64,000 nucleotides of DNA from Escherichia coli (GCF_003018235.1 NZ_CP027437.1); one strand, 5' to 3'; positions 10,773 through 57,726 are shown, counted from the stretch's first letter. Program-made: numbers and translations. Notes: a model not told the origin generated them from the letters alone.

Positions 10773-11419
10773 AAATCACCCCGTTGCGTATTCAGATCGG
10801 CGGCGACTTCAAACCGAGCTTCTGTTTTGGCACGCACGGTGGCTAAATCACACCCGTCGGCAATTTCGGTGAGCCACATTTTGCCGTCAATAAAACGAAA
10901 GACAGCCAGTTCAGTAACCAGCATATGCACCGCATGTTGCGCAGTGAGTGGCATGGTGCAGCGGCGCAAAATTTTTGCTGAACCATCTTTGGCGCAATGT
11001 TCCATGGCGATGATCACTTTGCGCGACCCGGTCACCAGATCCATCGCGCCACCCATACCGGGCACCATTTTCCCAGGCACTACCCAGTTCGCGAGGTTTG
11101 CTTCTTCGTCTACTTGCAAACCGCCGAGCACGCAGGCATCAATATGACCGCCGCGGATTAGCGCAAATGACATGGCGCTATCAAACATGGCTGCACCGGG
11201 TAAAACACCGCACGGTTGTCCGCCAGCGTTCACCAGATCTGGATGCGCTGTCGTGACCGGGCCTAAACCGAGGAAGCCGTTTTCCGATTGCAGAGTGATA
11301 TGAATACCCTCCGGTAAATAATTGGCGACCATTGTGGGTAAACCGATCCCTAAGTTAACGATGTCACCATCACGAAGCTCTTGCGCCACACGGCGCGCAA
11401 TACGTTGTTTCGCATCCAT
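10769..11419 (-). CDS. atoA: Acetate/acetoacetate CoA-transferase beta subunit
   Basis: 216 aa. Start and stop overlap atoD and atoE. CoA-transferase family sequence. Confidence 0.95.
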   Translation of the reverse strand: MDAKQRIARRVAQELRDGDIVNLGIGLPTMVANYLPEGIHITLQSENGFLGLGPVTTAHPDLVNAGGQPCGVLPGAAMFDSAMSFALIRGGHIDACVLGGLQVDEEANLANWVVPGKMVPGMGGAMDLVTGSRKVIIAMEHCAKDGSAKILRRCTMPLTAQHAVHMLVTELAVFRFIDGKMWLTEIADGCDLATVRAKTEARFEVAADLNTQRGDL

Positions 11420-50708: not shown

Positions 50709-50984
50709 TCACTTCTGCGGGTAGTTGCGCCATACTGCTTTACCAATACCAGCTATCCCCATTTGTTTTTCAGTGCGATTAACTGACCTTTTCAGAGCGC
50801 CTAAATCATCCGGCGGCTCCGGTGGCCTCTGTGCCTTCCTGGAACATTCCTGCCGTCGCATTGCCACCTGTGCGCGTTCCTTGTCTGTCTCCACCAGCAT
50901 CATCACTTCACCCCATCGCGCCGCCGCCCTCCTGTAAAATCCTTTCGCCTCGAGTTCCTCCGCTATACGGTCATGTACCATCAT
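50709..50984 (-). CDS. PerC-family transcriptional regulator-like protein
   Basis: 91 aa. The N-terminal ...AEELEAKGFYRRAAARWGEVM... matches the PerC/Pch signature (ELE.KG.WRRAA.RW..V) as I recall it. The start overlaps the stop of the upstream recombinase. Confidence 0.6.
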   Translation of the reverse strand: MMVHDRIAEELEAKGFYRRAAARWGEVMMLVETDKERAQVAMRRQECSRKAQRPPEPPDDLGALKRSVNRTEKQMGIAGIGKAVWRNYPQK

Positions 50985-51994
50985 TCACCACCTCCCGCAG
51001 ATGGCGATAAGCTGGCTTTGCCTCCAAGTGGATTAAACCTTATCGCCTCTGTCAGAAAATCCGGCGCAAAATGCGCGTAAACCATTGTCTGTTGTATGCT
51101 CGCGTGCCCCAGTATCCTTTGCAGTGTGATTATATTCCCCCCGTTCATCATGAAATGTGTCGCGAATGTGTGCCGTAATACGTGGGTGGCCTGGCCTTTT
51201 GGTAAGTCCGGTTTTACTGACTTGATGACCTCCCTGAACTCCAGATAATCCACATCAAACAACTGTCCCTTTTTACCTCTCGTTACAAGTTCCAGAACGT
51301 CATCAGACACCGGAACAGCTCGCGCCCGTCCGTTCTTCGTCTCCGTAAACATTACCTTGTTACTGACTATATTTTCCCGTCGTAGCGTCGATGACTCCCC
51401 ATAACGCGCCCCCGTCGAAAGACACAAAACAGCCAGCGCGAGACAGTCGCCTTTGGCAATATTCAGTAAATGATTAACCTCATCATCACCAAGAAAACTC
51501 ATAGCCTTGTTTGGTGCTTTCAGCTTGCGTAATCCACTCAAAGGGTTTTCACCGTGATACATACCGCATTCGATTAGCCCCCTGAACATTCCTGATATAA
51601 CCGACAAATCACGGTTAACAGTCAACGGACTAAGGCCGCATCCCAGCTTGTCGGCTCTGTATTCCATGAGCATTGCGCGGGTTATGTTGCAGATTCGTGG
51701 ATCCCCCATTTCACGGATAACCTTCATCATGCGCATAAACGATTGTTCGCCGTATTCCTCCGATCTTCCGATAAACTCCATCCATAAGTTAGCCAGATCA
51801 GATAACAGGCGAATATCTGCGGCGCGTGACTCCCAGGGCTTATTATGACAATGAAGCAGTATGTATTTTTCGTAATCACGGGCTTTTGTCTGCGAGGGAA
51901 AAATCTTTCTTATCCGTCGCCCGTAAGCGCCATTTGGCCTTACGTCAACCAGCCAGCGACCATCCTCACACTTCCTTATCGCCATGCTCCACAC
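50981..51994 (-). CDS. Tyrosine recombinase (phage integrase family), second recombinase of the island
   Basis: 337 aa. The catalytic pattern is present: TGARYGE (Arg), HVLRHTFATH (H-x-x-R) and LGHASIQQTMVYAHF (His...Tyr). Confidence 0.8.
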   Translation of the reverse strand: MWSMAIRKCEDGRWLVDVRPNGAYGRRIRKIFPSQTKARDYEKYILLHCHNKPWESRAADIRLLSDLANLWMEFIGRSEEYGEQSFMRMMKVIREMGDPRICNITRAMLMEYRADKLGCGLSPLTVNRDLSVISGMFRGLIECGMYHGENPLSGLRKLKAPNKAMSFLGDDEVNHLLNIAKGDCLALAVLCLSTGARYGESSTLRRENIVSNKVMFTETKNGRARAVPVSDDVLELVTRGKKGQLFDVDYLEFREVIKSVKPDLPKGQATHVLRHTFATHFMMNGGNIITLQRILGHASIQQTMVYAHFAPDFLTEAIRFNPLGGKASLSPSAGGGE

Positions 51995-52226
51995 CCTTAA
52001 CGTTGATGGTTGTTACCTGTTCCGCTTCGGCTATCTCCCGTTCGGTCAGCGTGGCAAAGTTTGCCGCCGCTGTGGTCATGAATGCGCTTATCAGTTCGGG
52101 ATGTGCTTTCGCGTATCCTTCTCCCGTGTTGCGGTCTATCGTTCTGATTGCCACCTTTAAGGCGTGCTCTGTCATGTCTAATGCGCGATATTTTGGCGCT
52201 GCCTTATCTCTGGTTTTTCTGGTCAT
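51966..52226 (-). CDS. Hypothetical protein (86 aa)
   Basis: ORF immediately downstream of the iteron region. Its 3' end overlaps the recombinase start. No family recognised. Confidence 0.45.
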   Translation of the reverse strand: MTRKTRDKAAPKYRALDMTEHALKVAIRTIDRNTGEGYAKAHPELISAFMTTAAANFATLTEREIAEAEQVTTINVKGVEHGDKEV

Positions 52227-52424
52227 TCCTCACCACTCCTCACTTTTACTCCTCACTTTTTGTTATTCCTCGCCTGCTCCTCACCTGTTTTTTTTGCTTC
52301 TGTAATGCGTTGTTTTGCAATGTATTTTTTATTCCTCACTTTTTGACCTATATACAGGTGAGAAAGTGAGGAGTAGCGCTGATTTTTTGTTAAATTACTC
52401 GCTACCCTCACTTTTACTCCTCAC
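52227..52424. repeat. Iteron array / putative replication origin of the island
   Basis: At least 8 direct copies of (T/C)CCTCAC(TTTT), starting at 52227, 52237, 52250, 52267 (variant), 52278, 52333, 52405 (variant) and 52418. One inverted copy (GTGAGGA) lies at 52366. They flank an AT-rich core and fill the whole intergenic gap after the helicase gene. Confidence 0.7.
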
Positions 52425-52427
52425 TTT

Positions 52428-53828
52428 TTACAGTGGGTGCACATCATCGCCATCAATAGCGATTACGCCGTCACCTTCCAGCTTGTACAGCCAGCGCCGG
52501 AAATTTTTCATCTCATACCCCAGCTTTTTCATATCGTCGCGGAGAAGGGCGATAGTGCACGCCTCCCCGTGTGCTGTCCTCGTTCTGATGCACTGCCATA
52601 GCGCGGCGTGATTCTCCGTCTTGTTTCCGGCCTCCTCGATGCGCTCCAGTTCAACGGGTGGGCGCGGTTTATCCACAACCACCAGCGACGTGATTAACTC
52701 CCCGTCAGCGTCGGTAAAAAGCTCCACCACACGTAAATCGTATGCGGCCTCTTTCAGTTCCTCCGCGTCCTTCATTTTGGTGCAGGAGATAACCAGGGCT
52801 TCACAGTCCGCACCTTCACGGCGAATACGGTATTCAGCGTCCAGAGATGCACGAAATGCACTGGAACCACGCGCCCCTTTCGTCTCATCCTTGCCGGAAT
52901 GGTGAACCACCAGCACCGTGGCCCCTGTGCGTCGTTTCAGTTCGTCACATCCACGGATAAACGCCCCCATGTCACGGGAATCATTTTCATCATTGCCGCC
53001 AAAGCAACGCGCCAGCGTATCCAGAATAATCATGCGTACAGGTTTACCCGTTTCCCGCTCCACCTGGCTGGCTGCGATAACCATTTCATCAACATCAAGC
53101 GGGGCCGCCGGAAAAATGGGACGGTTTACCAGATACAGATTTTTCACCTGCTCACCGTGCACAACCTCCCAGGCTTTTACACGACGTGGAACGCCGATAC
53201 CGCCTTCACCAACCACATAGAGAACCGCACCATGTGCAACCCTGCGGCCTCCCCAGTAGCGACCTGTGGAAACGTGACACGCCCACGATCCGGCAAGGAA
53301 TGATTTATAGGAACCGCTCGCCCCGTATATGCTGCATAGCGATACCGCCGGAATAATTCCCTTAACCACGTAATCAAGTTGCGTGTCGTATCCGGCAGAA
53401 CCAATGCTCATCGGTAGTTTGGTTTTCCGCTGGTGGCTTTTTTCTTCCTCCTGCGCTTTACCGCGCTCCCGTTCCAGATATTCGCGCCAGTTCTCCCGCT
53501 TCTGGCTGTGCATCCCATCTGGGTAATAATTCGCATCCCGTACACCTGCTGCCGCCAGCTTTTGCGCTATGGCATTAATGCTCGATGGCTTGATATGGCC
53601 TGCCCTGTACAGACGGACGCAATAGCGGCCCTCGTCGATGATTCTCAGGTCTGGCAGTTCAGCCAGTTGATCATCAGCCAGCACAACGGGAGGCACATTA
53701 TCGCCAGCAAGTCGCCCGTCCTGCTCCTGCCACTGCTTCGCGTGTGCCCAGGCATCACTACCCGCAAAAATAATGACTTCTGTCATTTTGTCGTAAGGCT
53801 GTTTTCTTAAGTTCGGTGCGCTCTTCAT
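52428..53828 (-). CDS. Replication protein, RepA/DnaB-like (AAA_25-type RecA-fold) helicase with extra N- and C-terminal domains
   Basis: 466 aa with a P-loop-like YGASGSYKSF, Walker B VRMIILDTLARCF and a VLVVHHSGKD motif typical of RepA-like helicases. It is adjacent to the iterons. Confidence 0.65.
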   Translation of the reverse strand: MKSAPNLRKQPYDKMTEVIIFAGSDAWAHAKQWQEQDGRLAGDNVPPVVLADDQLAELPDLRIIDEGRYCVRLYRAGHIKPSSINAIAQKLAAAGVRDANYYPDGMHSQKRENWREYLERERGKAQEEEKSHQRKTKLPMSIGSAGYDTQLDYVVKGIIPAVSLCSIYGASGSYKSFLAGSWACHVSTGRYWGGRRVAHGAVLYVVGEGGIGVPRRVKAWEVVHGEQVKNLYLVNRPIFPAAPLDVDEMVIAASQVERETGKPVRMIILDTLARCFGGNDENDSRDMGAFIRGCDELKRRTGATVLVVHHSGKDETKGARGSSAFRASLDAEYRIRREGADCEALVISCTKMKDAEELKEAAYDLRVVELFTDADGELITSLVVVDKPRPPVELERIEEAGNKTENHAALWQCIRTRTAHGEACTIALLRDDMKKLGYEMKNFRRWLYKLEGDGVIAIDGDDVHPL

Positions 53829-54121
53829 TTGCCTTTTCTCCCTCTGGCTATCTGGTTGCGTAACTCCGCTATGTGCTGTGCTATCGTTCCTGAATCATCA
53901 CAGCAATATTTCTTTTCCTTCAGAGGCGTAAAATCCTTCTCAAATTGCAACCGGAACATCACATTCTCAAATAAATATCCAGAACGTATAAAAGTAATAA
54001 ATGTGCTGTTAACTCTCGTCACTGTCACATAATTACCGTCACCATCCAGATAAATATCACCTTTAATAATTTCAGGGCGAGGAAGGCCGCTGGCAGTTGC
54101 GCCAGTATTTTTCTTTTTCAT
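53825..54121 (-). CDS. Hypothetical protein (98 aa)
   Basis: ORF with an ATGA overlap to the helicase start. No family recognised. Confidence 0.5.
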   Translation of the reverse strand: MKKKNTGATASGLPRPEIIKGDIYLDGDGNYVTVTRVNSTFITFIRSGYLFENVMFRLQFEKDFTPLKEKKYCCDDSGTIAQHIAELRNQIARGRKGK

Positions 54122-54137
54122 GGTATTTACCTTTCTG

Positions 54138-54419
54138 TTATTCGTCGTTCTGAATAAAACGTTGTTCTCTTATTTCAGAAAGTATCCTGTAAACATTCTT
54201 ATCACTTACCACTTGATGATAATCATCATCCTCAATAAAACACATCAGCGCCTTATTACGGATATATATTTCTCTGGAAAGAAACTGTATCGCCGCGACT
54301 GCCCTTTCTTCTGTAATTCCGTTCATTGACTCACGTTCAATAATAATATTAAGTGCGGCGGATGCGTCTTCCAGTTCAATAAGGTAAGCAGCGAGGTTAT
54401 TTTTTATTCCATTAGACAT
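54138..54419 (-). CDS. Hypothetical protein (93 aa)
   Basis: ORF in the operon between the icd-like gene and the 98-aa ORF. No family recognised. Confidence 0.5.
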   Translation of the reverse strand: MSNGIKNNLAAYLIELEDASAALNIIIERESMNGITEERAVAAIQFLSREIYIRNKALMCFIEDDDYHQVVSDKNVYRILSEIREQRFIQNDE

Positions 54420-54615
54420 GGCTCACCCCCTGACAGATTTTTGCAGCGAATACAGCAACACAACCGGACGGGCAAAGGTTACGCGCTTCGCGTTCCGTCC
54501 AGGCGGTTACGTGGATGATTTGATGGTCTGACGCGCCAAAGGCAATAAAGCGCCAGGTGAATTTATTCAGGTTGTGCGAGTCCCGCCCTTGCGGGTGTGT
54601 GATATGATTTAACAT
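54412..54615 (-). CDS. Icd-like (P4-type host cell division inhibitor-like) small protein, 67 aa
   Basis: MLNHITHPQGRDSHNLNKFTWRFIAFGASDHQIIHVTAWTEREARNLCP... resembles Icd-like proteins of P4-family elements. An SD (GAGG) lies 6 nt before the ATG at 54615. The 353-aa ORF in the track is an upstream read-through of this frame. Confidence 0.6.
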   Translation of the reverse strand: MLNHITHPQGRDSHNLNKFTWRFIAFGASDHQIIHVTAWTEREARNLCPSGCVAVFAAKICQGVSHV

Positions 54616-54712
54616 AGCTACCTCGATACTATTGCTATCGTTGGTGGTTAGAAGCCTGTGGGTGTTAGCGGCACCTACGGGCTTCGCAGTTTCTGAACCT
54701 TGAACACTCAAG

Positions 54713-54794
54713 GTGTAAGACACAACATAAAACAACAGTGTCTTACACGTCAACCCTTTAAAATAGTTTTTTTTCGTGTATATTGTCTTACACC
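54713..54794. promoter_or_regulatory. Divergent promoter/operator region with three GTGTCTTACAC operators
   Basis: The sites are GTGTAAGACAC (54713-54723, inverted), GTGTCTTACAC (54738-54748) and TGTCTTACAC (54785-54794). The leftward promoter TTGACG-18-TATGTT has one operator in its spacer and one at about +1. The rightward promoter has TATATT (54779-54784) abutting the third operator. Confidence 0.55.
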
Positions 54795-54814
54795 AAAAAC
54801 ATGAGGGGTTAGAC

Positions 54815-55000
54815 ATGGCAACAGGTCCAAAGAATGCAAAATCACAATCTGTAACTGCACGTATTGCCCATGAAATTATTGAAGGCATGGAAAACGTGAA
54901 AGAAGATGGCGAAAGTACAGGGCAGTTTATAAGCGCAGCCATGCGTGGCGAGATCAAACGCCGCCAACGGAAAAAAACCAAAGAATCAGATAAGGAATAA
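54815..55000 (+). CDS. Small ribbon-helix-helix-like protein (61 aa), candidate island repressor
   Basis: An SD (GAGGGG) lies 6 nt before the ATG at 54815. SQSVTARIAHEIIEGMENVKEDGESTGQFISAAMRGEI fits an Arc/CopG-type strand-helix-helix fold, followed by a basic tail. It is one of only two rightward ORFs I call in the island (with the 47-aa ORF downstream). Confidence 0.5.
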   Translation: MATGPKNAKSQSVTARIAHEIIEGMENVKEDGESTGQFISAAMRGEIKRRQRKKTKESDKE

Positions 55001-55003
55001 CTT

Positions 55004-55147
55004 ATGCAGCAAGTACTATACTGGCTTGGCTCTTTGTTTTTATTTGCTTTCCTCCTGGGAAATTGCATCAGCAATGAACACGTCAGTAATGAGCGTGTAT
55101 GCAGGAGTGATGAAAAAAAGATTCCACGCCTCATATACAATGATTGA
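55004..55147 (+). CDS. Possible 47-aa hydrophobic peptide
   Basis: ATG 4 nt after the preceding stop. The sequence is MQQVLYWLGSLFLFAFLLGNCISNEHVSNERVCRSDEKKIPRLIYND, with one TM or signal-like segment. It is too short for the ORF track. Confidence 0.3.
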   Translation: MQQVLYWLGSLFLFAFLLGNCISNEHVSNERVCRSDEKKIPRLIYND

Positions 55148-55298
55148 TTAGCTCGTGCAGCACTAAAGCAACGCAAGGCCAAAGAGCAGGAATAGCCCAC
55201 CAGCAAGCCAGCGCACTGATCACATTGCCCACCAGCCGCAAATGTGGCATTGTTGGCTATGCTCATGCGTTGGGGATAACGTGTAGCTTGTGTCGAGG

Positions 55299-55326
55299 GG
55301 CCACCGTAGCGGGTGGCCTTTGTTTT
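55299..55326 (+). terminator. Rho-independent terminator of the rightward RHH operon
   Basis: GGCCACC-GTAGCG-GGTGGCC followed by TTTGTTTT. Confidence 0.6.
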
Positions 55327-55422
55327 GCCTGTTATCCGGCAATTGTGGCGCTTCGCCACACGGTTGATATAATTCCCCTGCACTGATCCATTTTTTTCGC
55401 AGCAGGTTAATTGTTCGCAAGG

Positions 55423-55447
55423 GCGCTCCGGCAACGGGGCGCTTTTT
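55423..55447 (+). terminator. Rho-independent terminator (plus strand), convergent with alpA
   Basis: GCGCTCCG-GCAA-CGGGGCGC followed by TTTTT. No T-run follows it on the minus strand. Confidence 0.55.
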
Positions 55448-55477
55448 GTTATGTTCATCGCGTTACGCCTCACACCA

Positions 55478-55684
55478 TTACGCAGCCGTTCCGCGCGCTT
55501 CTTCCTCGCGCTCTTTCAGCCAGGCCAGCACTTCATCTTCATACCAGCCAACACGACGCAGACCGATTTTGAAGCCTTTCGGGAATTTTCCGGCGTTGAT
55601 CATGTCCTGTAGCGAACTGTCCGCCTTGATGCGAAGAATATTTTTTACTTCCTGACGGGTGAGTATTTTTCTGATTACTTCCAT
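55478..55684 (-). CDS. alpA: AlpA-family (MerR-like HTH_17) transcriptional regulator / excisionase-like protein
   Basis: 68 aa. ILTRQEVKNILRIKADSSLQDMINAGKFPKGFKIGLRRVGWYEDEVLAWL is the typical AlpA/Xis HTH pattern. Confidence 0.8.
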   Translation of the reverse strand: MEVIRKILTRQEVKNILRIKADSSLQDMINAGKFPKGFKIGLRRVGWYEDEVLAWLKEREEEARGTAA

Positions 55685-55815
55685 CGTGTTTTACCTCATT
55701 AATCCGGCGTGTTCCGGTGATAAATACGGTAAAACAGGGAAGGGCGGGAAAAACAGTACCTACCGTTTTAAAACGGTACCCACTGTTTTTTATCTCGTTG
55801 ATTGTGCTTCTTTTT

Positions 55816-55846
55816 GCAAAAAATAGCGACCGCAAGGGGCCGCTAT
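55816..55846 (-). terminator. Rho-independent terminator after the 77-aa ORF
   Basis: The minus strand reads ATAGCGGCC-CCTTGC-GGTCGCTAT followed by TTTTTTG, 6 nt after the stop. Confidence 0.65.
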
Positions 55847-55851
55847 TGTGA

Positions 55852-56085
55852 TTACCGTCTCCACTTCTTAGGTCGCCCACCGCATTTAAGGCTGGTGGGC
55901 CTCAGCACCTTGTCGATGCTTTCAGCCAGATTTTTCGATACGCCACGTGAGCGCAAAAAACTGACTACCTCGTGTTTTGTGGGGGCTGTTGATTTGTCTT
56001 CCGGATCGTACGTTGACCAGAATTCACGGCTTACCAGTACAGCCAGTTCAAGCCCGTCACAAGTGCCATTGATGTTTGTTTGCAT
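55852..56085 (-). CDS. Hypothetical protein (77 aa), possible HTH and basic C-terminal tail
   Basis: ORF between int and alpA with its own terminator. The HEVVSFLRSRGVSKNLAESI segment is HTH-like, and the C-terminus is GGRPKKWRR. Confidence 0.5.
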   Translation of the reverse strand: MQTNINGTCDGLELAVLVSREFWSTYDPEDKSTAPTKHEVVSFLRSRGVSKNLAESIDKVLRPTSLKCGGRPKKWRR

Positions 56086-56189
56086 GTTGATGCTCTCTTC
56101 ATGTTTGGCGGCCTTTGGGGGTAACGAGATAATGCAACTATACGACGGTTTTACATGGTTTTCATCGTTTTTGCTGGTTTTGTGTACAG

Positions 56190-57431
56190 TTATACCGCAC
56201 GGATACCCCTTTTACCACCAGCAAGGGTAACGCCCGTTGCCGCTGCCTCAACAAATTCCCCCCACCAGCGCATCAGCACAATGCGTTTTTCCAGGTAGTT
56301 ACTGCGGTTGTAGGCTCTCCTTACTTCGTTGGTGTCCACGTGGGCCAGTGCGGCCTCGATTACGTCCGGCTCGAATCCTTCCTCGTTTGCTGCTGTGCTG
56401 AATATGGCGCGTAATCCATGAGACACCAGCACGCCAGCGAACCCCATGCGCCGTAATGCTGCGTTGGCGGTCTGGCTGTTCATCGGCTGGCGTGGGTCTT
56501 TCAGGCTCGGGAAAACATGCTCGCGGTGGTGGCTGATTGGTTTCATGGCCTCCAGCACTGCCATAGCCTGACCGCAAAGCGGGATAACGTGATCACGTCG
56601 CATCTTCATACGTCCGGCTGGTATCGTCCATTGTTGCTCGTCCAGGTCGATTTCTTCCCAGCGTGCTGACGATGCCTCAACAGGACGGGTTACGGTAAGT
56701 AGCTGCCACTCAATCAGTAGTCTTGTCTGCCGTTCTGTTGCCGATACGGATAAAGCCCGCATAAGCTCCGGTAGCTGCTCGGGGCGGATTGTTGGCATAT
56801 GTTTTTTTACTGGGGTGGGGAAGGCCTTGCGCACGTTTGTAGCCGGATTGGTATCAATCATCCCGCTGTTGGCGGCGTAATCCATAACTTCATTGATGCG
56901 CTGTAAAACCCGCTTGAGCGTTTCCAGGTTGCCGCGTTCCTTGATGGGGGTGAGTATCTCCACGAACCTGCGGGCGGTGAGGGTGTCTACTGGCGTGTCA
57001 CCGATGAACGGGAATACATATTTCTCCAGCGATCTCCATATGTCTTTAATTGTGTTGGGTGCAAGATTCTGGCTGATTTTCACCTGGTACCATGCCGCTG
57101 CTACATTTTCGAACGTGTTGCCCTGTCTCCGTTCCTCTGCTTCGCGTTTTCGTCGCTCGTGTTCCTGTGGGTCGGTGCCGGAAGAAATTAACGTCCTGTA
57201 CTCGCTACGGCGTTTTCTGGCATCAGCCAAGGAAACATCATCAAGCGATCCAAAACTCAGCAATATTCTTTTTTTGTCCAATGGGCGGTAGTAGGAAAAT
57301 CGCCAGAGTTTTGATCCAGACGGTTTGACCAGGAGAAAAAGCCCTCCGCCGTCCTGTAGGGTGTACTCCTTTTCCGCTGGTCTGGCTGCTTTGATCTGCA
57401 CTGTGGTTAATGGGGTTGTTTTTCTCGCCAT
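56190..57431 (-). CDS. int: P4-type tyrosine integrase (DUF4102 N-terminal arm-binding domain)
   Basis: The N-terminus MARKTTPLTTVQIKAARPAEKEYTLQDGGGLFLLVKPSGSKLWRFSYY is the classic P4-integrase-family start. The catalytic region is ...HGLRAIFSTAANE...AALAHVDTNEVRRAYNRSNY. The ORF extends to 57449. Confidence 0.9.
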   Translation of the reverse strand: MARKTTPLTTVQIKAARPAEKEYTLQDGGGLFLLVKPSGSKLWRFSYYRPLDKKRILLSFGSLDDVSLADARKRRSEYRTLISSGTDPQEHERRKREAEERRQGNTFENVAAAWYQVKISQNLAPNTIKDIWRSLEKYVFPFIGDTPVDTLTARRFVEILTPIKERGNLETLKRVLQRINEVMDYAANSGMIDTNPATNVRKAFPTPVKKHMPTIRPEQLPELMRALSVSATERQTRLLIEWQLLTVTRPVEASSARWEEIDLDEQQWTIPAGRMKMRRDHVIPLCGQAMAVLEAMKPISHHREHVFPSLKDPRQPMNSQTANAALRRMGFAGVLVSHGLRAIFSTAANEEGFEPDVIEAALAHVDTNEVRRAYNRSNYLEKRIVLMRWWGEFVEAAATGVTLAGGKRGIRAV

Positions 57432-57464
57432 ATGTCTATGATTCCACACGAAAAAATGGGGTTT

Positions 57465-57519
57465 TAGTTATACGGCTTTAGTTATACGTCAGCCCGTATA
57501 ACTAAACGTATAACTAAAA
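57465..57519. repeat. Right-end cluster of four CGTATAAC units (two inverted, two direct), including the 26-bp copy of the left-end repeat
   Basis: TAGTTATACG occurs at 57465 and 57479. CCGTATAACTAAACGTATAACTAAAA lies at 57494-57519. Confidence 0.7.
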
Positions 57520-57570
57520 AATCCGGCTGATAGCTTATAAATCCGGTGATGTCCGGTGACTAAAAACCAT

Positions 57571-57602
57571 AAAAAAACCCGCCAATCAAGTGATTAGCGG
57601 GC
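57571..57602 (-). terminator. Rho-independent terminator downstream of proL
   Basis: The minus strand reads GCCCGC-TAATCACTTGATTG-GCGGG followed by TTTTTTT, 48 nt after the tRNA 3' end. Confidence 0.6.
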
Positions 57603-57649
57603 TTTTCGTGTCTGAAACTGTTATTTCCGGTGGTATCCGGTGGGCGATT

Positions 57650-57726
57650 TGGTCGGCACGAGAGGATTTGAACCTCCGACCCCCGACACCCCATGACGGT
57701 GCGCTACCAGGCTGCGCTACGTGCCG
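57650..57726 (-). tRNA. proL: tRNA-Pro (anticodon GGG)
   Basis: The minus strand reads CGGCACGTAGCGCAGCCTGGTAGCGCACCGTCATGGGGTGTCGGGGGTCGGAGGTTCAAATCCTCTCGTGCCGACCA. This gives a 7-bp acceptor stem, D arm, anticodon loop AUGGGGU, TPsiC arm GGAGG/CCTCT and an encoded CCA. Confidence 0.95.

What the first reader, a model, noticed from the sequence alone, without database searches (positions are those of the whole stretch)
50709..51994. Second, internal tyrosine recombinase translationally coupled to a PerC-like regulator
Seen in sequence: besides the tRNA-proximal P4-type integrase, the island has a 337-aa tyrosine recombinase with an intact R...HxxR...H...Y pattern. Its stop overlaps the start of a 91-aa PerC-like ORF (ATGA-type overlap). 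The pair lies directly between the replication origin and repeat copy B. Established knowledge: satellites and prophages normally need one integrase. PerC/Pch-family proteins are prophage-borne activators that switch on LEE virulence genes in EPEC and EHEC. Inference: the extra recombinase may act on the internal direct repeats (cassette excision or exchange), resolve island multimers, or be a trace of a composite origin. The PerC-like protein could be the activator of the capsid operon immediately downstream, or could cross-talk with host regulons. I saw no internal copy of the tRNA-like att sequence that would indicate two tandem islands.
Basis: partly seen in the sequence, partly recalled or inferred. 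Interest (0 to 1): 0.55.

Follow-up and report, generated by a model that had tools for sequence, protein, structure and literature searches.

The report
Extra P2-type integrase in a PICI
A 10-kb phage-satellite island at tRNA-Pro has its own end integrase plus an intact phage-P2-family integrase gene sitting where related islands carry ssb, just before a PerC-like gene; extra integrases in such islands have been reported before, and what this one does is still unknown.

Summary
An intact tyrosine recombinase lies at 50981-51985 (334 aa from the likely ATG; 337 aa is the mechanical GTG ORF). Its stop overlaps the start of a PerC-family ORF (50709-50984).

The host element is a Gram-negative PICI-type satellite at proL, with lambdoid-type cos sites and a capsid gene.

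The recombinase belongs to the phage-P2 integrase family (47% identical to P2 Int) and keeps all six catalytic residues. Sibling PICIs carry ssb in this slot, and the replacement matches the gene boundaries exactly. PerC is present in siblings that lack the integrase, so the Int-PerC coupling is operon packing, not a dedicated module.

The gene is kept under purifying selection (dN/dS 0.075 against an allele in an island about 83% identical overall). Its nearest relatives (63-66%) are also internal genes of Salmonella satellites. At least three satellite lineages captured P2-type integrases independently.

It is not the island's integration enzyme. I found no P2-type attP or arm repeats in the island. 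The internal direct repeats are cos sites and also occur in integrase-less siblings.

The recombinase's target is unknown. I infer, without showing it, that it acts in trans on P2-type att sites.

Secondary internal int genes in PICIs were already noted in 2023 (PMC10111431). Interest is moderate.

The parts
50981..51985 (-). Internal P2-family tyrosine integrase, 334 aa (the mechanical ORF extends to GTG 51994)
   Evidence: Pfam Int_N plus Phage_integrase. 47% identical to P2 Int, with the R-K-H-R-H-Y set intact. dN/dS 0.075. Identical protein found on at least 23 contigs, always in this PICI.
50709..50984 (-). PerC-family gene (91 aa; 90 aa from the second ATG at 50981). Its start overlaps the int stop.
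   Evidence: Pfam PerC 6.5e-39. 73% identical to the PerC of the O157 sibling PICI. 44% identical to plasmid-borne PerC-family proteins.
50685..50702 (-). Intrinsic-terminator-like hairpin ending the replication/Int/PerC transcription unit
   Evidence: AGCCGGAGCAATCCGGCT followed by a T run.
51966..52226 (-). Conserved 86-aa gene (phrog_1231). Its 3' end overlaps the int start. It marks the left edge of the swapped slot.
   Evidence: phrog_1231 at 7e-48. Homology to ssb-type siblings ends at its last codons.
52238..52429 (.). Iteron-type replication origin downstream of the RepA-like gene
   Evidence: Three copies of CCTCACTTTTACTCCTCACTTTTT spaced 83-85 nt apart, plus an inverted repeat.
52428..53828 (-). 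RepA-like replicative helicase (AAA_25)
   Evidence: Pfam AAA_25 at 5e-42; phrog_2850.
50603..50690 (-). cos-like repeat copy B (lambdoid cos region)
   Evidence: 81-88% identical to the region just upstream of terS in Stx phages and near the end of mEp460. Repeat families D1/D7.
48054..48142 (-). cos-like repeat copy A
   Evidence: The L011 deletion joins copy B to copy A within TCCACGGGGCGGGTCGGCGCGGAAAAA.
48170..50283 (-). Late (capsid) operon: phrog_4934 gene (50056-50283) and the ClpP-protease/major-capsid fusion (48170-50065)
   Evidence: Pfam CLP_protease plus Phage_capsid_4. 52% identical to the Stx2_95 phage protein.
56190..57449 (-). Terminal P4-type integrase, the island's own integration enzyme
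   Evidence: Arm-DNA-bind_3 plus Phage_int_M plus Phage_integrase. It sits next to tRNA-Pro 57650-57726.
55478..55684 (-). alpA (excisionase/activator of Gram-negative PICIs)
   Evidence: Annotated as an AlpA-family/HTH regulator in SCU-111 and L003; PF05930 at the equivalent gene.
47323..57664 (-). Whole PICI, bounded by the only two copies of the core GCACGAGAG (47323-47331 and 57656-57664, the latter inside the tRNA-Pro 3' end)
   Evidence: Host flanks are yejO/narP and yejM.

Best explanation
The island is a Gram-negative PICI-type phage satellite integrated at proL by its terminal P4-type integrase.

The 334-aa gene is a phage-P2-family integrase captured as a bare ORF. It now occupies the slot between the conserved phrog_1231 gene and perC, the slot that holds ssb in sibling PICIs.

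It overlaps the upstream gene and is followed by perC and a terminator. It is therefore most probably made together with the replication genes when the satellite is induced.

It is a working recombinase that selection maintains. It does not integrate or excise the island, and PerC is not its partner.

Shown: family membership, intact active site, ORF-precise replacement of ssb, purifying selection, a satellite-specific lineage, repeated independent captures, absence of a P2-type attP in the island, and independence from the chromosomal insertion site.

Inferred:
- Co-transcription with the replication genes.
- The target. All three captures brought no att site, and the catalytic residues are conserved. 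I therefore think the enzyme most likely acts in trans on P2-type att sites outside the island, on resident or incoming P2-like phages. About 30%.
- The next most likely role is processing of the satellite's own replicating DNA into monomers or multimers. About 15-20%.

The confidence given (0.55) is for the shown core: a captured, functional, non-primary integrase with incidental PerC coupling. It is not for the inferred target.
For: - **Family:** Pfam and PHROG hits. Best phage hits are Peduoviridae integrases at 57.6%. 47% identical to P2 Int, with R194/K217/H268/R271/H294/Y303 conserved in all satellite copies.
- **Slot swap:** O157 and proL sibling PICIs carry ssb there. Sequence homology stops at the end of phrog_1231 and resumes at the perC start.
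- **Selection:** dN/dS 0.075 at dS 0.85, against an allele in an island about 83% identical overall. This compares with the terminal int (0.095) and RepA (0.115).
- **Lineage:** the window Int and the Salmonella satellite Ints form a clade with 99% bootstrap. A second satellite clade (92%) and a Rahnella P4-like satellite Int nested among Yersinia prophage Ints (97%) indicate at least three captures.
- **Contrast with phage copies:** of the 80 homologues from other species, about 59 sit next to a P2-type C repressor, often with cox as well. Only one (Rahnella, L040) is clearly inside a satellite.
- **Not the integration enzyme:** the identical P0005 Int occurs in islands at the ugp locus and at ileX, with different terminal integrases. 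The Int-less L003 uses the same proL site.
- **No att site:** similarity to phage int loci ends at the int stop codon, and no arm-type tandem repeats were found.
- **Operon end:** a terminator follows perC.
- **Literature:** secondary internal int genes in PICIs, related to prophage integrases, were noted in PMC10111431.
Against: - No target site was identified, so the 'in trans' step rests on argument only.
- This PICI's cos sites and capsid gene are lambdoid. The helper-type phage Stx2_95 has an unrelated IntR. A helper-directed role that makes sense for the P4-like lineages does not transfer easily to this island.
- The closest phage integrases are only 57-62% identical, so recognition of any known phage att site is uncertain.
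- The configuration is rare: 1 of 5,426 complete E. coli genomes.
- Expression was not measured.
Confidence: 0.55

Rival explanations
1. The integrase processes the satellite's own replicating DNA at a site within the island. It either resolves multimers (as Cre/loxP or XerCD/cer do for plasmids) or fuses monomer circles into multimers that a lambdoid terminase can package from cos to cos.
For: In most satellite lineages examined the gene follows the replication initiator and origin and sits in the same operon; in the Rahnella P4-like satellite it lies just before the primase gene. The satellites that carry it also carry plasmid-style stabilisation modules: hok/sok, MazEF and HicAB. It occurs in both lambdoid-type and P2-type satellites, which favours a function intrinsic to the satellite.
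Against: No candidate site emerged. No noncoding block next to the gene is conserved across lineages other than origin iterons. No P2-type arm repeats are present. In all three lineages only the ORF was captured, without attP. P2-type integrases need arm sites and IHF.
Confidence: 0.17
2. The integrase acts on the two internal direct repeats to excise or exchange the capsid cassette.
For: A natural variant (L011) of the Int-bearing island lacks exactly the segment between the repeats. The crossover lies in a 27-nt stretch identical in both copies.
Against: The repeats are lambdoid cos regions. Both copies are present in the Int-less sibling L003. They bear no resemblance to P2-type core or arm sites. 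The deletion appeared in 1 of 23 contigs read. Homologous recombination in the longest identical stretch, or terminase cutting at both cos sites, explains it as well.
Confidence: 0.07
3. It is a spare integration module that lets the island insert at a second chromosomal site when proL is unavailable.
For: The enzyme is intact and under selection. Integrase swapping among satellites with the same backbone is common.
Against: All contigs read place the island at proL. In Salmonella the insertion site tracks the terminal integrase, not the internal one. The island has no P2-type attP.
Confidence: 0.1
4. It is a functionless remnant of a recombination with a P2-like prophage: neutral cargo of the variable late zone.
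For: It is rare in E. coli. PICI late zones capture phage genes (PMC10111431). The islands are mosaic.
Against: dN/dS is 0.075 at dS 0.85. All catalytic residues are kept across satellite lineages that differ by 12-40%. Both gene boundaries are tightly packed into the operon.
Confidence: 0.08

Closest known systems
Gram-negative PICIs of E. coli (EcCICFT073 / EcCIEDL933 type; Fillol-Salom et al. 2018, PMC6092414)
   Same: Terminal int next to the att site; alpA; unidirectional genes; replication gene followed by an origin; a PerC homologue; a late zone with a capsid gene; lambdoid cos.
   Different: A P2-family integrase sits where ssb normally lies. The capsid gene is a ClpP-protease/capsid fusion. 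Two cos-like copies flank the capsid operon.
'Secondary internal int genes' / 'extra integrase genes in the PICI Late zone' (NAR Genom Bioinform 2023, PMC10111431)
   Same: An additional integrase inside a Gram-negative PICI, related to prophage integrases rather than to the main PICI integrase.
   Different: That paper mentions them in passing as captured phage genes related to helper prophages. Here the gene is of the P2 (Peduoviridae) family although the cos and capsid are lambdoid. It lies at the boundary of the replication and late zones, belongs to a satellite-specific clade, and is under purifying selection.
Phage P2 integrase (Int, 337 aa) and P88/705R2-type Peduoviridae integrases
   Same: Same domain architecture, length and catalytic residues, and a conserved N-terminal arm-binding region. 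47% identity to P2 and 57-59% to the P88-like group.
   Different: No adjacent C repressor or cox. No attP (P arm, IHF site, core, Cox boxes, P' arm) downstream. The gene is embedded in a satellite replication operon.
PerC of EPEC and Pch of EHEC (PF06069)
   Same: Full-length match to the PerC family. About 44% identity to plasmid-borne family members.
   Different: It is encoded in a PICI. PICI homologues have given mixed results on LEE: no effect, activation or repression (PMC6092414, PMC11773190). Nothing is known for this allele.
Replicon-borne multimer-resolution recombinases (Cre/loxP of P1, XerCD/cer)
   Same: A tyrosine recombinase encoded next to a replicon.
   Different: Scores fall far below the XerC/XerD and integron-integrase family cut-offs. 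It has a P2-type arm-binding domain. No resolution site was found.

Membership tests
P2-family phage integrase (tyrosine recombinase with Int_N) | Int_N plus Phage_integrase domain architecture, about 330 aa | tested here: met
   PF24624 at 8e-25 and PF00589 at 3e-19; 334 aa.
P2-family phage integrase (tyrosine recombinase with Int_N) | Catalytic R-K-H-R-H/W-Y set | tested here: met
   R194, K217, H268, R271, H294 and Y303 align with P2 Int and all relatives.
P2-family phage integrase (tyrosine recombinase with Int_N) | Cognate attP next to the gene (arm-type tandem repeats, IHF site, core, Cox boxes) | tested here: not met
   Similarity to phage loci ends at the stop codon. No TGTGGACA- or TGTCCAT-type tandem repeats above chance. 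perC starts at the int stop.
P2-family phage integrase (tyrosine recombinase with Int_N) | Sits in a P2-like prophage next to the C repressor and cox | tested here: not met
   Neighbours are the phrog_1231 gene, RepA and PerC. Most homologues from other species do sit next to a P2-type C repressor, often with cox.
P2-family phage integrase (tyrosine recombinase with Int_N) | Catalyses attP x attB recombination | not testable with these tools
   Needs a biochemical or genetic assay.
XerC/XerD or integron integrase | Score above the curated family cut-off | tested here: not met
   XerC 81.7 bits against a cut-off of 335; XerD 78.9 against 330; integron integrase 63.7 against 265.
PerC family (PF06069) | Full-length match to the family profile | tested here: met
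   132.5 bits against a cut-off of 22.6; residues 2-90 on profile positions 1-89 of 90.
PerC family (PF06069) | Activates LEE1/ler or another defined promoter | not testable with these tools
   Published PICI homologues behave differently from one another.
Gram-negative PICI | Terminal int plus alpA, then replication gene and origin, then late zone, mostly unidirectional, 10-20 kb, specific att site | tested here: met
   The island is about 10.3 kb at tRNA-Pro.
Gram-negative PICI | Carries the helper's packaging signal (cos) | tested here: met
   The repeat element matches the region upstream of terS in Stx2 phages and near the mEp460 genome end. This rests on similarity only; cleavage was not shown.
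Gram-negative PICI | Induced and mobilised by a helper phage | not testable with these tools
   Needs an experiment.
Known anti-phage defence systems (PADLOC) | Match to a defence-system protein model | tested here: not met
   No hit for Int, PerC or the neighbouring small proteins.

The most novel reading that the evidence does not exclude
Satellites have repeatedly domesticated bare P2-family integrase genes, without att sites, as trans-acting tools against P2-like phages. One example would be supplying the Int that derepressed, non-inducible P2-type prophages lack, so that the prophage excises. Another would be forcing integration of incoming phage DNA. On this reading the copy in this lambdoid-dependent PICI is a weapon or manipulator aimed at co-resident P2-like prophages rather than at the island itself.
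Probability: 0.2. Interest if true: 0.7.

Novelty: new member of a known kind. Interest (0 to 1): 0.38.

Why it matters
Satellite-finding pipelines assume one integrase per element and treat extra ones as boundary artefacts (PMC10085698). Here the extra integrase is a stable, selected part of the satellite backbone. It belongs to lineages that live only in satellites and arose at least three times.

If it acts on P2-type att sites in trans, satellites would be manipulating the integration state of other prophages. That interaction between mobile elements has not been described.

If it acts on the satellite's own DNA, it would point to a packaging-substrate step that has not been studied.

For annotation, the practical lessons are three. 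The Int-PerC overlap is not a functional module. The internal repeats are cos sites. The island is a single element, not a tandem.

Tried and rejected
- **Rfam scan of the island:** only the tRNA and one sub-threshold chance hit.
- **PADLOC:** nothing.
- **attP remnants:** BLAST of regions around the int genes of four satellite lineages against phage att regions found similarity only inside the int coding sequence.
- **P2-type or P88-type arm repeats:** at chance level.
- **Screen of 68 phage int-downstream segments against the island:** one weak lead, the 15-nt identity GGGCGCTTTTTTTGT at 50469-50483. It matches the att region of 705R2/P0029 phages. It is a T-rich terminator tail, about 0.2 such hits are expected after multiple testing, and it is on the opposite strand from int. 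I do not rely on it.
- **TCCGGTG tandem motifs near attL as possible arm sites for the second integrase:** rejected. The Int-less L003 has homologous, covarying sites at the same positions.
- **P2 or P4 cos similarity of the repeats:** none.
- **orf93 (54138-54419) as a P4 epsilon-like derepressor:** no similarity.
- **Plasmid-borne homologues as evidence for a resolvase role:** the 48% hits on IncC plasmids are a P2 prophage integrated in the plasmid.
- **Inverted repeats flanking Int-PerC (I9, 77% complementary):** judged chance-level.
- **Failed runs:** a first bootstrap run timed out and was redone with my own distance code.

Full report
**1. What is at the coordinates**

On the minus strand, 50981-51994 is an open frame of 337 codons starting at GTG. 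All homologues begin MAIRK/MSIRK and RefSeq annotates 334 aa. The start is therefore most likely ATG 51985, preceded by AAGGG at 8 nt.

Pfam finds Int_N (8e-25) and Phage_integrase (3e-19). Aligned with P2 Int, the protein is 47% identical. It keeps R194, K217, H268, R271, H294 and Y303, and a conserved N-terminal arm-binding region.

The stop TGA overlaps the first ATG of a 91-aa ORF, 50709-50984, which matches Pfam PerC over its whole length (6.5e-39). A strong GGAGG lies inside the last codons of int. An intrinsic-terminator-like hairpin follows perC at 50702-50685.

**2. The element**

tRNA-Pro(GGG) lies at 57650-57726. The host flanks are yejM and yejO/narP.

Reading the minus strand, the island contains:
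- a P4-type integrase (56190-57449);
- alpA;
- small variable genes;
- a DUF4222 gene;
- a RepA-like helicase;
- an iteron origin (52238-52429);
- the phrog_1231 gene;
- the second integrase;
- perC;
- a short gene plus a ClpP-protease/major-capsid fusion (48170-50283);
- a last small gene.

The core GCACGAGAG occurs only at 47323 and 57656. This is one island of about 10.3 kb, not a tandem. The layout is that of the Gram-negative PICIs (PMC6092414, PMC10111431). A nearly identical island (99.6%) is in E. coli SCU-111.

**3. The direct repeats are cos sites**

The repeat (48054-48142 and 50603-50690) is 81-88% identical to a segment that lies just upstream of terS in Stx2 phages. The same segment lies near the genome end of mEp460. 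It contains a lambda-cosN-like ACGGGGCGG motif and shows no similarity to P2 or P4 cos.

The capsid fusion is 52% identical to that of phage Stx2_95. That phage's own integrase is an unrelated IntR. The likely helper is therefore lambdoid.

The Int-less sibling L003 also has both repeat copies.

One natural variant, L011, has lost the segment between the repeats. The crossover lies inside a 27-nt stretch identical in both copies. Homologous recombination or terminase cutting at both cos sites explains it at least as well as the integrase does.

**4. The integrase sits in the ssb slot**

Parts of the query region match DNA in 1,381 of 5,426 complete E. coli genomes. Only one genome has the integrase configuration.

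In an O157:H7 PICI and in another proL PICI, the gene between phrog_1231 and perC (or cos) is ssb. Alignment of the junctions shows identity up to ...CAACGTTAA at the end of phrog_1231, and again from the perC start. In between, ssb and int are unrelated.

Int-PerC is therefore not a dedicated pair. PerC goes with the operon, and the overlap comes from tight packing. The same capsid operon also occurs without perC (L003 and the Salmonella satellites). perC occurs in front of a lambda E/D-type late module (L002). That argues against PerC being the obligatory activator of this capsid operon.

**5. Selection**

The identical protein was found on at least 23 contigs, always in this PICI at proL. 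An island that is only about 83% identical across its length (L014) carries an allele 88% identical at the protein level in the same slot.

Between the two alleles, dN/dS is 0.075 at dS 0.85. This is as low as for the terminal integrase (0.095) and RepA (0.115). The islands are mosaic. In L005 the origin and RepA C-terminal region is 78-82% identical to the window, while int is 99.9-100% identical.

**6. Relatives**

The best phage hits are integrases of P2-like Peduoviridae (57.6%), lying next to the C repressor and cox.

In a scan of one genome per species, about 59 of the 80 homologues lie next to a P2-type C repressor, often with cox as well. Only one, a Rahnella locus, is clearly inside a satellite. 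Two large E. coli and Salmonella protein clusters at 59-61% identity are likewise prophage integrases.

The closest relatives of the window protein (63-66%) are internal genes of Salmonella satellites. They lie after a D5-type primase and before the same kind of capsid operon, and each island has a P4-type integrase at its end.

A second Salmonella group (59%) lies after a P4-alpha-like primase. Those satellites carry a C4/CI-type RNA, an Ogr/Delta-like gene and a P2-capsid-like gene. Its S. diarizonae relatives are in satellites too.

In the Rahnella P4-like satellite, the gene lies between an epsilon-like gene and the primase gene.

A neighbour-joining tree with 200 bootstraps gives:
- window plus Salmonella group A, 99%;
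- Salmonella group B plus diarizonae, 92%, within a clade of E. coli phage integrases;
- Rahnella with Yersinia prophage integrases, 97%.

That makes at least three captures, two of them old enough to have diversified inside satellites.

**7. Not the island's integrase, and no att site**

The identical Salmonella protein P0005 occurs in islands at the ugp locus and at ileX. The two islands have different terminal integrases, of 410 and 479 aa. P0017 likewise occurs at two loci. L003 uses proL without the second integrase.

In P2, the attP elements span about 200 bp just past the int stop, and the P' arm lies inside the last codons of int. In all satellite lineages, similarity to phage loci ends at the stop codon. 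P2-type and P88-type arm repeats are at chance level in the window. Nothing noncoding next to the gene is conserved between lineages except origin iterons.

One 15-nt identity to a phage att region (50469-50483) is not significant after multiple testing.

**8. Mechanism**

Shown: an intact, selected P2-family recombinase, placed in the replication operon, that does not determine insertion.

Inferred: it is produced on induction along with the replication genes.

The target remains open. Only the ORF was captured each time, and yet catalysis is conserved. At the moment of capture, the only substrates available were the att sites of P2-like phages. I therefore rank trans action on such sites first, at about 30%.

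In the P4-like lineages this has a clear rationale. From my own knowledge of P2 biology, not checked here: P2 prophages are non-inducible because Int is limiting after derepression, while Cox is made. In those lineages the gene sits beside epsilon-like or Ogr/Delta-like genes that manipulate the helper.

For this lambdoid-type PICI the rationale is weaker. That is the main argument for the rival, processing of the satellite's own DNA (about 17%).

Cassette excision at the cos repeats, a spare integration module, and a dead relic each rank lower.

**9. Known or new**

PerC homologues in PICIs are known, with mixed effects on LEE. This copy is 73% identical to the O157 PICI PerC and 44% identical to plasmid-borne ones. 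PerC homologues are rare in bona fide phage records: 16 of 50,697.

Secondary internal int genes in Gram-negative PICIs, related to prophage integrases, were mentioned in 2023 as captured late-zone genes. SatelliteFinder assumes one integrase per element.

What is added here: P2-family identity in a lambdoid-type PICI, the exact ssb replacement, purifying selection, satellite-only clades and repeated capture. I file it as a new member of a known kind and score interest at 0.38.

Noticed in passing
window 48054-48142 and 50603-50690; L011:11200-11600: The PICI carries two lambdoid cos-like sites in direct orientation flanking its capsid operon. One natural variant (L011) has lost exactly that 2.5-kb segment, with the junction in the cosN-like stretch TCCACGGGGCGGGTCGGCGCGGAAAAA. 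Cutting at both cos sites during packaging would give this product. The Salmonella relatives have only one copy, after the capsid gene.
   Followed up: partly
window 57542-57558, 57626-57642, 55703-55719 (weaker copies at 50507-50525 and 47637-47655): A tandem motif, TCCGGTG-N3-TCCGGTG, is enriched in the island: 3 of the 4 window matches, against 0.7 expected for the whole window. It lies next to attL and upstream of alpA. The Int-less sibling L003 has covarying versions at the same attL positions. It probably binds AlpA or the terminal integrase.
   Followed up: partly
window 50372-50487, + strand: A promoter-like site (TTGACG-18-AATATT) is followed by a 14-bp-stem terminator hairpin on the strand opposite to the island's genes, between cos copy B and the capsid operon. 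It is conserved, with loop changes, in the diverged island L014, and absent from L003. It could be a small antisense RNA or a bidirectional terminator.
   Followed up: no
L108:9620-9840 against L117 at the same columns (alignment A2): The origin iterons downstream of the P4-alpha-like primase covary as a set between Salmonella lineages: GGTGTAACA in one and GGTGATACA in the other. This fits co-evolution of primase and iteron specificity.
   Followed up: no
window 52100-52700 against L005, L010 and L012: The RepA C-terminus, the iterons and phrog_1231 are only 78-82% identical between islands that are 98-100% identical on either side, including int. This looks like an exchange of the replicon-specificity segment.
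   Followed up: no
L108:4773-4860 and 11073-11285; L015:11943-12098: The Salmonella satellites that carry an internal P2-type integrase also carry a C4/CI-type antisense RNA and an Ogr/Delta-like zinc-finger gene just after the integrase (group B). Group A carries a hok/sok module.
   Followed up: partly
window 44629-47220 against L001:3666-4588, and L006, L009, L012: The autotransporter gene yejO, next to the island's attR side, is intact in the window. It is truncated or missing in SCU-111 and several other carriers of the same island.
   Followed up: no
window 54412-55473, - strand: A 353-codon ORF spans the alpA-to-icd-like region. Some gene callers report it as a 332-348-aa protein with no Pfam hit. 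RefSeq instead annotates short genes on both strands (Icd-like, YlcI/YnfO). The long ORF is probably spurious.
   Followed up: no
L120 (NZ_CP021835.1 89756-102724): A P2-type prophage early region (C-like repressor, cox, replication endonuclease, integrase) is integrated in a 210-kb IncC conjugative plasmid. Similar integrase hits appear on about 200-kb plasmids from several Enterobacterales.
   Followed up: no
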